Of a stretch of 64,000 nucleotides of DNA, positions 46,166-50,931 are shown in pieces. The notes below the pieces were generated by a model. The model searched no databases, had not been told where the DNA came from, and worked only from the letters and a program-made list of their open reading frames with translations. Source of the DNA: Mobula hypostoma. Lineage: Eukaryota. Numbering within the stretch: position 1 is the stretch's first letter; each line of letters opens with the position of its first letter. The position numbers and the translations under genes were made by a program. The stretch spans positions 30,382,001 through 30,446,000 of the forward strand of contig NC_086108.1 of the NCBI RefSeq assembly GCF_963921235.1, given 5' to 3'.

Positions 46166-46339
46166 ATGGACGAGGTGATAGATGTGAATGATCAGGAAAC
46201 CCAAGGGGTCGCGATCATACGCCAGAGAAGGAGAGTACCCTTTGAGATCATTAATTCTTTTCTCACCGTTATCTGTCTGGCCAGTACGGGTCTTGTGGTG
46301 TTTAGGTTGCTTCAGAACCAAAGCCCCGTCGAAGTCAAG
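46166..46339 (+). CDS. TNF-superfamily ligand (OX40L/TNFSF4-like) exon 1: cytoplasmic tail, TM helix, short stalk
   Basis: AAATGG Kozak context. MDEVIDVNDQETQGVAIIRQRRR is followed by the hydrophobic VPFEIINSFLTVICLASTGLVVFRLL. Donor AAG|GTAAGT, phase 0. Confidence 0.85.
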
Positions 46340-49300
46340 GTAAGTTCCTTCTTCACCTTCGCTTCAAAAAGAACAATCATTTACCGTTAACCATTTTTTG
46401 CGTCTTTATATCTTTTAAAGGACGCGTTTCTAAGCGTGTCCTTGTCTTTTAAATTAAGCTATTTTAAAATTGAAACAGTGAGATGGTGCAGCCCAAAATT
46501 TGCAGGTTCATACAAGGTTGTCGCAGCGCTTCTCAGCGAGTTTATTAGGGGGTTAAATTGGCGGGCGATCTCGCTGTTGTTAAGCAGACTAGTCGGGCTG
46601 AGGGAGTGTTACCACCACTGTGCCTGCAGAACAGGTTTATTTATTTTAAAAGAAATGTCAGTGTAGTGCCCCCTCAGGAGGGCGAATGTAGAGAGGCTCC
46701 TAGTGTTAACACAGAAACGCATGTCAAGGCTGAGCCGTTGATACGTGCGGTTCCCAGCTCTTCTGGCTTCTCATACTTGCGTAAACCACTGGAGCGGGGG
46801 TTAATCTTGCCCCAGAGCCGATGGCGGAGAGAAACCGAGAGAGTAAAATGAGGAGACGTGTCTTCCCCCAACATCTGGAACTGAAACAATCTTTTTTAGT
46901 TCCTGATCATTTGCATCTGCCGAGTAGACCGGCTGATGATGAAATGCAGACTGAGAAAGGGTTGATTTGTTGCTCTCCGCTGAGTTAGCTGTGAGGTGGG
47001 ACTACTGGAAAACATAACGCGCGCACGCTCGTCTCGGATTTTCACAGCCAAGCTTCTGTTGAACAGCGATGTTAACCTTGTTGGTTCTTGGCTCCCTGCA
47101 CGCTGTTTCTCAGTCCTATTTCTCCCACTCATTTCTATGTAGCTACCTTTTCTTATATTCTCCTACAAGCTCATCTTGACCTCTTTCTATTTTCTGTTGA
47201 AATCCGGGATGCTAATTTCTCATCACCCGCGGTTTCCAGACAGGAATCTCCTATCCAGTCTACAGCGCTGAATATTTCCAGATAGATTCTTTGCGTTCAG
47301 AACGCAAACCACCATAGTTTGTTCTGATTGATAGTGGCGAACAAGTTCTCATTTGAAGACACGCCTTTCACCGCCGCAAAACGTCCTAAATGGAGCGTCA
47401 ATAAAGTGCGGTGAATCGTTACTTATTTATAGTTCAAGGCTTTCACTCACCTTAGAGGAAAAGCAGATGCTTCATTACTGGAAGCGCTGAATGATTTAAA
47501 TACATGGTTCTGGGAGCGCAGCTGTGTTTATGTTTGAACGCGTCTCACAAATAACAGATCACCTGCCTGTCTCTAATTCTAAAGCAGCTGATTTACAGTT
47601 TATAGTCAGACTGGAGCCTGGGTAAAACTTTAAAAAAGGATAACATATTAATGGTCGCTACTCAAATGGGCGCTAATGGGACCGACCCTTTAGACATTGA
47701 AAATATATATATGAGGTCAGCTTTGAGTGGAAATGCCGAAAGAGCTGGACGAGTCGGAAAGAATTCTCTTGCTGTCGTGTGGGACTTCATCAAGGACTTA
47801 GGTCTTAAGTTAACTCATTACGTATGTCCTCAGTTTTAATTTGAAATAAATGTTGGAACCGATTAGCATATCTTATTTATAGTTTAAGAGTTTCACCTAC
47901 GAGTTGAAGAAAAACAGGTGCTTTATTATTGGAAAGGATGAATAATTTAGAAATGAGTTCTTGGATAGACCTAAGGCAGCGGCGTCTGTAAAGCGGCGTG
48001 TGTAAGGCAGCGTTTCGCCGGTGATCGATCCACTTTCACTTGATATGTTAATAGAGCCGGGTACCAAACCACCATAATCATACAATTAACGTTTTATTTT
48101 AAATAAAAGACTTGCATTTAAGCAACATATTTGCAATTCCCGAGCATTCCCAAATCACTTAATCCAATAAAAATATAGTTGATTCGTTGGCAACTGCTGT
48201 CATTGCAAGAAACGCGGTCAACCTGTGATAGCGAAGTCCAGAAGAGCGAGGATAGTTAGTTTACTTTCATGTGATGCTAGGTAAGCATTAAATAATAACA
48301 AGTCATCGAGGAGCTTTGTGCCATTTTCTGAGAATAGTTTCATGGGATCTTTGTCTTGCGAGAAGACAAGTATCTCCTCTTGCAATAGATCACGGCGGTT
48401 GTTCCTGCAGTGATCCCGTTGGTATACTGTACCAGGATGCCGGCCAAGGTTCTGCGGTTAAATTGCAAGAACTGAGTATGAAATCATACGGTCAGATTAC
48501 CAAGATTAGCTCAGTGAGCAATGATGTTTCACATGGTGGGGCAGTATATTGAGAGAAAAGTAGATTCATTCTGGGCCAGAGATGATTGTTCAAATGTTTC
48601 TTCTTGCTTTTTTTCATTCTTCTCAATCCCATCGTCTCGCATAGTGCTGGTCTCTCCCGAATTCAGTTGGCAGCGTGTTTTCAGCGGTCATGAGTGGAAG
48701 CTACCACTTAATCTCTTACTTAAAATGTTGTTAAAAAACCAATTCAGCTCGTTAACCAATTTTCTTATTACCTTTCCCATTTTCTCCACCTATTGATCTG
48801 GTCTTTCTTTTTGTTTTCCTAACGAAAGGCCTTCCTAATGATTCACCGGATTAAATTTATACTATAAATGCAAATTGTTGTGTCATCCCCAGTCAGGGCA
48901 ACATTAGCTAATCTTAAACGGGGGTCAAGATTGGACTCCCTGTCTGCAGTGAGTTAGGTGATCTCAGGTGGGGCAACAGTTTAATGCTAAGATTGGCTTT
49001 GAAACCTAAAACTAGGTGTGATGGCAGGCTTGAGGCCAGATGAGGCTCTTGAAGCTCAAGGAGTAATTTCCGGATGCTCCCTATCTTGAAATCAACAGAG
49101 TAAAATCTTTAGAGAGAACTAAGACATAATAATGAAAAACAAAATCTAGAAAGTTTGTCTCTGATTTGTCCAGGCAGCTAGACTTAGCTCTGGAGATAAC
49201 AAAAAAAATCATTAACCCTTTGTATACCTAACTTTCTAGAGTATTTTGCAAATATTAGTCTTTTATGTATAATCTTTTTTCAATATTGCTAAATGAATTG

Positions 49301-49394
49301 ATATGAGATGCAAAGTAGGCACTGCAAAACATTAGAACAAAATGTCTTTGAAAATAAGCTAAGTGTTAACGCTTACTTTTATTTGTTTCTTTAG

Positions 49395-49428
49395 GAACCT
49401 ATTGCTATCCACGCTAAAGGAAAAATCA
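49395..49428 (+). CDS. TNFSF ligand exon 2 (34-nt micro-exon, EPIAIHAKGKI; THD strand A)
   Basis: Acceptor TTTGTTTCTTTAG and donor CA|GTAAGT. Phase 0 to 1 exactly bridges exons 1 and 3. PIAIH resembles the TNF strand-A motif P.AH. Confidence 0.82.
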
Positions 49429-49469
49429 GTAAGTATTGGCAAATACTCAGTTTAAACACTTTCACAAGT

Positions 49470-49536
49470 CAGGTAGCATCTGTGTCAAGTGAAACAGAAT
49501 TAATGTTTCAGGTCTGAGACCCTTCATCAGAACTCA
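49470..49536 (-). ncRNA. Penelope-type minimal hammerhead ribozyme relic in intron 2 (antisense to the gene)
   Basis: Minus strand reads GAGTT-CTGATGA-AGGGTCTCAGACCT-GAAACATT-AATTC. The core boxes and stems I/II are present, but stem III reads ACAT instead of ACGT. Confidence 0.55.
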
Positions 49537-50569
49537 GTAGTTCACAGTGCTGTATTTGTCAATGTGGAGTGGAGAGTGAGTTTGTAAATCTGACAAGAGC
49601 AAAGGATGTTGGAAATGACCCCCTCCCCTTTCCCCAACAATGATTGCTCTTTCTTTGACCCCTTCCCACTGTAAGTCTACAATAGAGATACACATCAGAA
49701 TCAGGTTTATCATCATTCACATCTGTCATGAAATTTGTTTGGATTGAGATAACTATCTTGTTCCTTGTTGACAATTTCAATAATTTGAACATGTTTGCAG
49801 GTGCTAAATGAGACACAAGACACTTGTGCTAATTCGACCAAATTTTTTATGTCTTGATGTAGGGGCTCTTTGAATCAATTTATTTTAAACTTGTTAAGTG
49901 GACTGTCTGACTCACAGATACACCTCGTGGGATGTCTCAGCCACTGAGCGAAGTGCTATCCAGTTTCCTGGGCACAGCTCTGGAAATGTTAGGGAATTTG
50001 CAGAACTATCAGAGATAGAGAGATGACAGTGTCCCAGAAAGTCTTCCACTTTGTATCAAGAATCCTTTTTACAAGTTCAGTAGCAATGGACAGCTGACGA
50101 TGATAAAACAAATTGTGCATCTATCAATTTTCTGAATAAAACATCTGGGAAAAAATAACCCATGGTGAAATACTGTGGTACCCTCTGTAGCATTTGGTTG
50201 AATGAGCTTTTCTTGTGAAATATAAGTCTGGTGTGCAGTAAGAAACATCTTTGGAGAGGAGTTAATAGGACACATTTTGTTTAACATACTAACAATGAAT
50301 GGAGTTTATTTTATCTGTCATTGTATATGTCTTCAGAATATCTGTCAGCATTTGCAAAATCACAGCAAATGCAGTAATGCCGAGTGACTTTAGTCCAGGG
50401 ATTGTAAAAAATGCGTAATAGGGGATTTTGAAAGGAGTTCATTTAACTTTTCAGTTGAGCTAATTTCACCTCTGATATGTTTATGATAAGCTCAGGCCAT
50501 CCCTTCCCTCCGTTTTCTCCTTGTGGGTGTTCACTGACTTATCTATCCTTTTATTCTCTTTCTTCACAG

Positions 50570-50931
50570 ATTCAAAAAATATAGTTCACATGGAGAGCAA
50601 GAATAGCTTCTGGGTGCGTAATGGAAGCATCAGTGTCCCCTGTGATGGGCTGTACTTGGTTTCTGCACAGGTAACAGCGGAGCAGAATTCTGCAATAACT
50701 ATTACGTGCAGAGGAGCAGATTCGTCAGAGTATGGATGGCCCATTGGAAATGTTATCATAAATCAGACCTTGGTGACAACAGCCGATCTACGCAGAGGTG
50801 ATATCATCCGCATGGAGATCAAAGATGCTACTTCAAAAAAACTTAACGGAGAAGCCCTTTTGGGAATTGTTTTATTGGAAGCTGAACCAAACATGAAATC
50901 TTGTCGGGAGAATATGCAAACTAATCCTTGA
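50570..50931 (+). CDS. TNFSF ligand exon 3 (TNF homology domain) with stop codon
   Basis: Polypyrimidine acceptor ending CACAG. Encodes NGSISVPCDGLYLVSAQV, L..GD.I and LLGIVLL, the THD B/C, G and H strand signatures. The spliced CDS is 570 nt, giving 189 aa. Confidence 0.88.

What the first reader, a model, noticed from the sequence alone, without database searches (positions are those of the whole stretch)
46166..50931. Spliced 189-aa OX40L (TNFSF4)-like ligand, invisible in the ORF track as a single gene
Seen in sequence: three exons with canonical GT-AG sites and compatible phases (0, 1), including a 34-nt micro-exon, give a type II membrane protein with a compact TNF homology domain. Established: human OX40L has NNSVIINCDGFYLIS, whose Cys pairs with a C-terminal Cys, and TNFSF4 and TNFSF18 are short three-exon genes near FASLG. 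Here NGSISVPCDGLYLVS plus a Cys after strand H (KSCRE) reproduces the OX40L pattern, while GLYLVSAQV and the very short exon 2 are also GITRL-like. N-glycan sequons are NQS, NGS and NQT. These fast-evolving T-cell costimulatory ligands are hard to detect outside tetrapods, so a cartilaginous-fish copy bears on the origin of OX40/GITR costimulation (inference).
Basis: partly seen in the sequence, partly recalled or inferred. Interest (0 to 1): 0.72.

Follow-up and report, generated by a model that had tools for sequence, protein, structure and literature searches.

The report
OX40 ligand gene of a ray
This is a real, spliced gene for a T-cell co-stimulating signal (OX40 ligand) in a ray-like fish, and it is ordinary because the same gene is already described in sharks and a chimaera.

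Summary
Three GT-AG exons (174, 34, 362 nt; phases 0 and 1) encode a 189-aa type II membrane protein. A probable RNA contig of a close relative joins both introns at exactly the called sites; a second relative supports them. Exon 3 folds as a TNF/C1q jelly roll.

The TNFSF4 identity is supported. The protein is 40% identical to RefSeq 'TNF superfamily member 4' of the great white shark. It is homologous to the elephant-shark locus published as TNFSF4 between PRDX6/TADA1 and FASLG. Profiles rank OX40L above GITRL.

The novelty claim fails: cartilaginous-fish TNFSF4 is in print (PMC7674686, PMC11762692). What remains is small. The protein groups with skate homologs, although a 2025 survey scores TNFSF4 absent in little skate. 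It also carries one extra cysteine. Synteny could not be tested here, and no tree with other TNF-family members was built. The scan's earlier notes held nothing on this gene.

The parts
46101..46165 (+). 5' UTR, at least this long
   Evidence: X2 contig 9 starts at 46101; a contig end is not a transcription start
46166..46339 (+). Coding exon 1 (58 codons): short cytoplasmic tail, basic stretch, signal-anchor helix, start of stalk with sequon N51
   Evidence: 64% identical over 50 aa to basking-shark ortholog P0005
46247..46303 (+). Predicted transmembrane segment, residues 28-46
   Evidence: best 19-aa hydropathy window, mean 2.13
46340..49394 (+). Intron 1, GT-AG, phase 0, 3055 nt
   Evidence: skipped by contigs of X2 and X7
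49395..49428 (+). Exon 2, 34 nt; carries the IHAK segment, probably the first strand of the TNF domain (strand label inferred)
   Evidence: IHA conserved in the 8 of 8 homologs that reach this column
49429..50569 (+). Intron 2, GT-AG, phase 1, 1141 nt
   Evidence: skipped by X2 contig 9
50570..50931 (+). Coding exon 3: most of the compact TNF homology domain, predicted C-terminal helix, stop codon
   Evidence: AlphaFold2 pLDDT 73, 7 strands and 1 helix; fold matches TNF/C1q
50641..50643 (+). Cys94 of the PCDG motif
   Evidence: invariant in alignments A3 (10 rows) and A4 (12 rows, with birds)
50707..50709 (+). Cys116, an extra ectodomain cysteine with no evident partner
   Evidence: absent from 9 of 9 cartilaginous-fish homologs aligned
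50902..50904 (+). Cys181 after the last strand; inferred disulfide partner of Cys94
   Evidence: invariant in A3 and A4; the bond itself was not measured
50932..53481 (+). Long 3' UTR (at least about 2.2 kb on one contig, probably 2.55 kb or more), AU-rich, with a repeat insertion near 53115-53300
   Evidence: X2 contig 9 runs to 53173; X7 pieces of similar depth run to 53481; 9 ATTTA to 53173
53570..53575 (+). Candidate polyadenylation signal AATAAA (one of 4 between 50932 and 56000)
   Evidence: lies outside the stretch laid with reads, so untested

Best explanation
The locus is the TNFSF4 (OX40 ligand) gene of a batoid fish, probably not a skate. Shown: three exons are spliced (in close relatives) into an mRNA with a long 3' UTR; it encodes a 189-aa protein with one membrane anchor and a compact TNF jelly-roll domain; it is the homolog of shark and chimaera genes classed as TNFSF4. 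Inferred: the N-terminus faces the cytoplasm and the glycosylated TNF domain faces out, tied by a Cys94-Cys181 bond. Inferred from mammalian OX40L: it trimerises on activated antigen-presenting or B cells and clusters OX40 (TNFRSF4) on activated T cells, giving a co-stimulatory survival and helper signal. Confidence is about 0.97 for the gene and fold, 0.88 for TNFSF4 orthology, and 0.7 for binding a ray OX40.
For: Splicing. Homologs: 5 of the 8 phmmer hits among 1.84 billion representatives are single-stretch matches over nearly all of exon 3; 4 are from named cartilaginous fishes and 1 is unnamed. The spliced protein matches NP_001409366.1 'TNF superfamily member 4' [Carcharodon] at 40% over 193 columns, E 2e-40. 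P0008 is Callorhinchus LOC103180077, listed in the PMC7674686 supplement as PRDX6 - TADA1 - TNFSF4 - TNFSF6 x4 - SUCO. Profiles against PDB sequences put human and mouse OX40L first (E 6e-7 and 1e-5, GITRL 2e-4). Of 72 further hits of the cartilaginous-fish profile, 53 are named TNFSF4/TNFL4 (birds), 19 are unnamed or generic, and none is named another TNFSF. A bird-only profile scores the spliced protein 34.1 bits against at most 6.9 for 500 shuffles. Fold: human OX40L ties for the top (Z 10.6, rmsd 2.9, 107 aligned) and aligns to model residue 115. A transcript labelled Ox40 is reported in nurse-shark Tfh-like cells (PMC10529500, one passage).
Against: Alone, exon 3 has no significant Pfam TNF hit (E 0.2), no PDB sequence hit to a TNF ligand and no hit in the first homolog search. 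Fold Z-scores within 1 are ties, so C1q, BAFF, CD40L, TRAIL and TNF match as well as OX40L, and Foldseek ranks TNF-alpha first. ESM features of exon 3 put a TNFSF18 cluster above TNFSF4. The bird hits came through a word filter and a profile that contained the window's exon 3, so searches are partly circular. The human receptor-binding hot spots N166 and F180 (PMC12743370, passages) do not look conserved: N166 aligns to Leu (register uncertain), and the residue before the terminal Cys is Ser (F180 preceding C181 is recalled). No neighbouring gene was found in the window.
Confidence: 0.86

Rival explanations
1. The gene descends from the single ancestor of both tetrapod TNFSF4 and TNFSF18 (a co-ortholog), keeps features of both, and may signal through OX40 and a GITR-like receptor. 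This is compatible with the TNFSF4 label but changes what it says about function.
For: PMC7674686 treats TNFSF18 as a later duplicate in the TNFSF4 tandem (passage). The profile also matches GITRL over its C-terminal half, including the last strand (E 2e-4). ESM features score TNFSF18 clusters 0.92 for exon 3 and 0.94 against 0.95 for TNFSF4 with the full basking-shark protein.
Against: The CDG cysteine and the terminal cysteine are shared with bird TNFSF4, and the GITRL rows seen lack the CDG cysteine. GITRL scores Z 7.2-7.5 against 10.6 for OX40L. Cartilaginous fishes have a separate neighbour, TNFSF-F8, which another study calls GITRL (reported in PMC11762692).
Confidence: 0.2
2. It is TNFSF-F8, the cartilaginous-fish neighbour of TNFSF4 and FASLG that one study labels GITRL.
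For: F8 is the only TNFSF4-type gene recorded in the little skate's FASLG cluster, and the window's protein groups with skates.
Against: The three F8 rows of the PMC11762692 alignment (Callorhinchus, Rhincodon, Leucoraja; identified by species set and position) lack PCDG and differ throughout, by eye. The rows in the TNFSF4 block share IHA, W/YxxN and PCDGxY with the window's protein.
Confidence: 0.02
3. It is a TNFSF4-derived gene that is transcribed but has lost or changed its receptor partner in rays, given its long branch and extra cysteine.
For: Only 40-44% identity to skate-type homologs and a long batoid branch; Cys116 is found in none of 9 homologs; the stop codon is read as Ser in one relative.
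Against: The frame is intact, the intron positions hold in a relative 7-9% diverged, and the 16 columns invariant in A3 include both cysteines and the core Trp. Of the 4 coding-region differences listed for X2, 2 are silent, 1 changes residue 187 and 1 extends the end by 4 residues (the table was cut).
Confidence: 0.07

Closest known systems
Cartilaginous-fish TNFSF4: Carcharodon NP_001409366.1; Callorhinchus LOC103180077; Rhincodon LVEK03006578.1 (PMC7674686, PMC11762692)
   Same: Full-length homology (29-41% identity): tail and anchor, IHA segment, PCDG motif, core Trp, LR motif, last strand and terminal Cys.
   Different: Batoid branch; extra Cys116; short C-terminus (ends 8 residues after Cys181, where several sharks and Callorhinchus run on for 19-39).
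Skate homolog Rhinoraja longicauda XP_078263987.1 (LOC144597996, 'uncharacterized')
   Same: Closest named relative: 44% over 128 aa, grouped at 100/100 support.
   Different: The NCBI model lacks the exon-1 tail and anchor, probably a gene-model error (inference); it is not named TNFSF4; it has no Cys116 and no sequon at N87.
Human and mouse OX40L (PDB 2hev, 2hew, 2hey)
   Same: Compact TNF jelly roll, CDGxY motif, top PDB sequence-profile hit, tied top fold hit.
   Different: 16-23% identity in structural alignments; hot spots N166 and F180 apparently not kept; a predicted C-terminal helix in the model (whether OX40L has one was not checked).
GITRL/TNFSF18 (PDB 3b93, 7khd) and TNFSF-F8
   Same: Compact domain, similar last strand, same gene cluster in the published synteny tables.
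   Different: Lower profile and fold scores; no CDG cysteine in the rows seen.

Membership tests
TNF ligand superfamily | Type II single-pass membrane protein | tested here: met
   One hydrophobic segment at 28-46 behind a basic stretch; orientation inferred from charge
TNF ligand superfamily | C-terminal TNF-homology jelly-roll fold | tested here: met
   Model pLDDT 73 from a 10-row alignment of exon 3; the 44 Foldseek rows shown are TNF or C1q-type domains by title; Z up to 10.6
TNF ligand superfamily | Pfam TNF (PF00229) above cut-off | tested here: not met
   E 0.2, 12.1 bits, cut-off 23. The model is weak for this subfamily: best E 0.0038 among 6 aligned homologs, and none of the 77 hits carries a precomputed Pfam domain
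TNF ligand superfamily | Homotrimer | tested here: inconclusive
   No verdict from the one prediction run; see Tried and rejected
TNFSF4 / OX40L orthogroup | Homology to curated cartilaginous-fish TNFSF4 | tested here: met
   40% over 193 columns to NP_001409366.1, E 2e-40; E 2e-23 to LOC103180077
TNFSF4 / OX40L orthogroup | Nearest tetrapod relative is OX40L | tested here: met
   PDB profile searches; 53 of 72 further hits named TNFSF4, none another TNFSF (word filter applies)
TNFSF4 / OX40L orthogroup | CDG cysteine plus terminal cysteine | tested here: met
   Both invariant in A3 and A4; the human C97-C181 bond is recalled, not from a call
TNFSF4 / OX40L orthogroup | Position between TADA1/PRDX6 and FASLG | tested here: inconclusive
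   No whole genome held; no Pfam hit above cut-off among 300 of 310 unmasked ORFs of 50 aa or more
TNFSF4 / OX40L orthogroup | Supported clade with tetrapod TNFSF4 against other TNFSF outgroups | not tested
   The tree holds only cartilaginous-fish homologs; no outgroup proteins were returned by the searches
TNFSF4 / OX40L orthogroup | Binds OX40 (TNFRSF4) and co-stimulates T cells | not testable with these tools
   No ray receptor sequence in hand; needs binding and cell assays
TNFSF18 / GITRL | Closer to GITRL than to OX40L | tested here: not met
   Lower in 3 of 3 profile searches and in fold Z; one contrary lead
TNFSF-F8 | Sequence pattern of the published F8 rows | tested here: not met
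   By-eye comparison with 3 supplement rows; no scored alignment was run

The most novel reading that the evidence does not exclude
The cartilaginous-fish TNFSF4 lineage, kept in rays and skates despite a published 'absent' call, predates the OX40L/GITRL split and serves both OX40 and a GITR-like receptor. The ray form adds an unpaired cysteine (Cys116) that could link ligand units covalently and change how receptors are clustered. The narrower part (batoids keep TNFSF4) is about 0.9 likely but of modest interest.
Probability: 0.12. Interest if true: 0.5.

Novelty: new member of a known kind. Interest (0 to 1): 0.2.

Why it matters
It gives a splice-supported gene model for a fast-evolving immune ligand that Pfam misses and that automatic annotation mostly leaves 'uncharacterized'. 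With the Rhinoraja homolog it shows that batoids keep TNFSF4, so the little-skate 'absent' entry in PMC11762692 is either a lineage loss or a missed gene. It does not move the date of origin of OX40L, which was already placed before the shark/bony-fish split. Paired with a ray OX40, it would allow a direct test of whether OX40 costimulation works in cartilaginous fishes.

Tried and rejected
Single-sequence searches of exon 3 found nothing useful: Pfam, PDB sequences, the 5.8-billion word-indexed search. AlphaFold2 without an alignment gave pLDDT 33.

Homotrimer prediction of exon 3 (3 copies) gave no verdict: score 0.11, mark 0.32, alignment not used, and the chain lacked the exon-2 segment. 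It is no evidence either way.

No listed run is on record as RNA. Runs X1 and X6 gave no exon joint, and exons 1-2 had no specific cover in them; neither is evidence of anything.

Three of the 8 phmmer hits (P0001, P0002, P0007; 6-34 stretches each, 658-3427 aa) were left out as probable repeat proteins without being examined.

Neighbouring genes: 300 of 310 unmasked ORFs of 50 aa or more were scanned. Three weak hits below cut-off (RecO_N_2, TMEM171, SPC12) were taken as noise. Another 189 such ORFs lay in regions masked by eye as repeats and were not scanned; shorter exons would be missed. No second TNFSF4-like locus was seen by tblastn or the bird profile.

A PU.1/Ets-type motif upstream (45802-45810) is one of 8 in the window against 3.3 expected; no strict kappa-B site and no Roquin-type loop pattern were found near the gene. 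None is used as evidence. These motif patterns are recalled.

Four look-ups in the scan's earlier notes returned nothing on this gene.
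Full report
Observation. Joined, they give 189 codons and a stop. The protein has a 27-residue tail with a basic stretch, one hydrophobic segment (28-46), sequons at N51, N87 and N134, and cysteines at 37, 94, 116 and 181. The ORF list shows exons 1 and 3 only as unconnected frames.

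Splicing. Thirteen runs were listed, none on record as RNA; four were laid on 45700-53500. One 2876-nt contig of X2 covers 46101-46339, the micro-exon and 50570-53173, and skips both introns at exactly the called GT..AG ends; it differs at 40 of about 2600 letters in the last piece. A contig of X7, from another study and 7-9% diverged, makes the same first joint and has the same 36 letters between its exon-1 and exon-3 pieces. X1 matches exon 3 and the UTR without differences but shows no exon joint; X6 has almost no specific cover. So the model is supported in two relatives, not yet in a run identical to the window. Contigs give no strand, tissue or level.

Homologs. Exon 3 alone escapes Pfam (TNF E 0.2), the PDB sequence search and the word-indexed search. 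The unfiltered phmmer search gave 8 hits; 5 are single-stretch matches over nearly all of exon 3, from Chiloscyllium, Cetorhinus, Scyliorhinus, Callorhinchus and one unnamed record. A profile added Carcharodon, Mustelus and the skate Rhinoraja. The Carcharodon protein is NP_001409366.1, 'TNF superfamily member 4'. The spliced window protein aligns end to end with the shark proteins (35-41%; 40% and E 2e-40 to Carcharodon). In a tree of these 10 rows it groups with Rhinoraja and the unnamed protein at 100/100, outside their pair. That points to a batoid other than a skate (inference).

Which TNF ligand. The Callorhinchus hit is LOC103180077. The supplement of PMC7674686 lists this locus as TNFSF4 in the order PRDX6, TADA1, TNFSF4, four TNFSF6, SUCO. 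The alignment of PMC11762692 holds the same domain next to the whale-shark, turtle, human, chicken and platypus rows, the six species its synteny table credits with TNFSF4. The three TNFSF-F8 rows look unlike the window's protein by eye. Profiles against PDB sequences rank human and mouse OX40L first and GITRL next in 3 of 3 searches. A further profile search gave 72 hits besides the 5 cartilaginous-fish ones: 53 named TNFSF4 or TNFL4, 19 unnamed or generic, none named another member. That search uses a word filter and contained exon 3, so it and the bird-profile control (34.1 bits against at most 6.9 for 500 shuffles) are partly circular. Against: the language-model search of exon 3 ranked a TNFSF18 cluster (0.92) above a TNFSF4 cluster (0.87); with the full basking-shark protein TNFSF4 led narrowly, 0.95 to 0.94.

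Fold. With a 10-row alignment, exon 3 gave a model of pLDDT 73 with seven strands and a C-terminal helix. Foldseek returned TNF and C1q-type domains, with TNF-alpha first and mouse OX40L third. In the wide search human OX40L tied with C1q at Z 10.6 (rmsd 2.9, 107 aligned) and reached model residue 115; many TNF ligands lie within 1 Z, and GITRL scored 7.2-7.5. The fold proves the superfamily, not the member. Cys94 and Cys181 are invariant across cartilaginous fishes and 6 birds, which fits the bond recalled for human OX40L; the bond was not measured.

How it probably works. By orthology it is a membrane-bound trimer on antigen-presenting or B cells that clusters OX40 on activated T cells. Trimer and 3:3 binding are established for human OX40L (PMC12743370, passages), and its expression pattern in mammals is reviewed in PMC6001812 (passages). 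Nurse-shark Tfh-like cells are reported to express Ox40 (PMC10529500, one passage). None of this was shown for the ray protein, and the human hot spots N166 and F180 do not appear to be kept.

Surroundings. No whole genome is held. The rest of the window reads by eye as retroelement remains. Pfam found nothing above cut-off in 300 of 310 unmasked ORFs of 50 aa or more. Synteny is therefore untested.

Novelty. TNFSF4 in cartilaginous fishes is in print: PMC7674686 (passages, Table 1 and supplement searches) and PMC11762692 (passages and supplement parts 1, 5, 6, 19 and 20 of 23, plus searches). The latter scores TNFSF4 absent in Leucoraja, its one batoid for this cluster. The window's gene and the Rhinoraja model show that batoids keep it. 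Five literature searches listed no paper on a ray TNFSF4, but the last was dominated by ecology papers. Redmond et al. 2022 (J Immunol 209:1713) was seen only as cited and discussed in PMC11762692; it sampled 8 cartilaginous fishes and may already include a batoid. Its supplements were not seen, and the tree file of PMC11762692 was cut in the output, so I could not read the support value for the TNFSF4 branch.

Verdict. Real gene, TNFSF4 the best identity (about 0.86), a new member of a known kind. Interest 0.2.

Noticed in passing
window 50930 (run X2): In relative X2 the stop codon reads as Ser, which would extend the protein by 4 residues before the next stop.
   Followed up: partly
window 53115-53300: A high-copy short repeat sits inside the 3' UTR; many unrelated contigs pile on it, and a similar piece lies in intron 2 near 49510-49740.
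   Followed up: no
window 45802-45810 (-) and 46034-46041 (+): A PU.1/Ets-type motif about 300 bp above the contig start and a kappa-B half site about 65 bp above it; the former occurs 8 times in the window against 3.3 expected. Motif labels are recalled.
   Followed up: partly
window 46667-49096: Low-depth (about 1-5) contigs of X2 cover parts of intron 1: unspliced RNA or DNA in the run.
   Followed up: no
P0013 (Rhinoraja XP_078263987.1): The skate model lacks the exon-1 tail and anchor, probably a mis-predicted start; such errors may explain missed batoid TNFSF4 genes.
   Followed up: no
window 6200-11000, 16800-21100, 23300-25700, 27500-28300: Broken reverse-transcriptase-like ORFs of several retroelement types, judged by eye; the element at 23300-25700 has two long ORF pieces (355 and 358 aa).
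   Followed up: no
window 57360-58270: An imperfect CA/TG-rich repeat of about 900 nt that gives His/Thr and Cys/Val low-complexity frames.
   Followed up: no
PMC7674686 supplementary file 2: The whale-shark contig LVEK02054556.1 is listed under both TNFSF9 and TNFSF4; its aligned sequence is the PCDG (TNFSF4) type.
   Followed up: no
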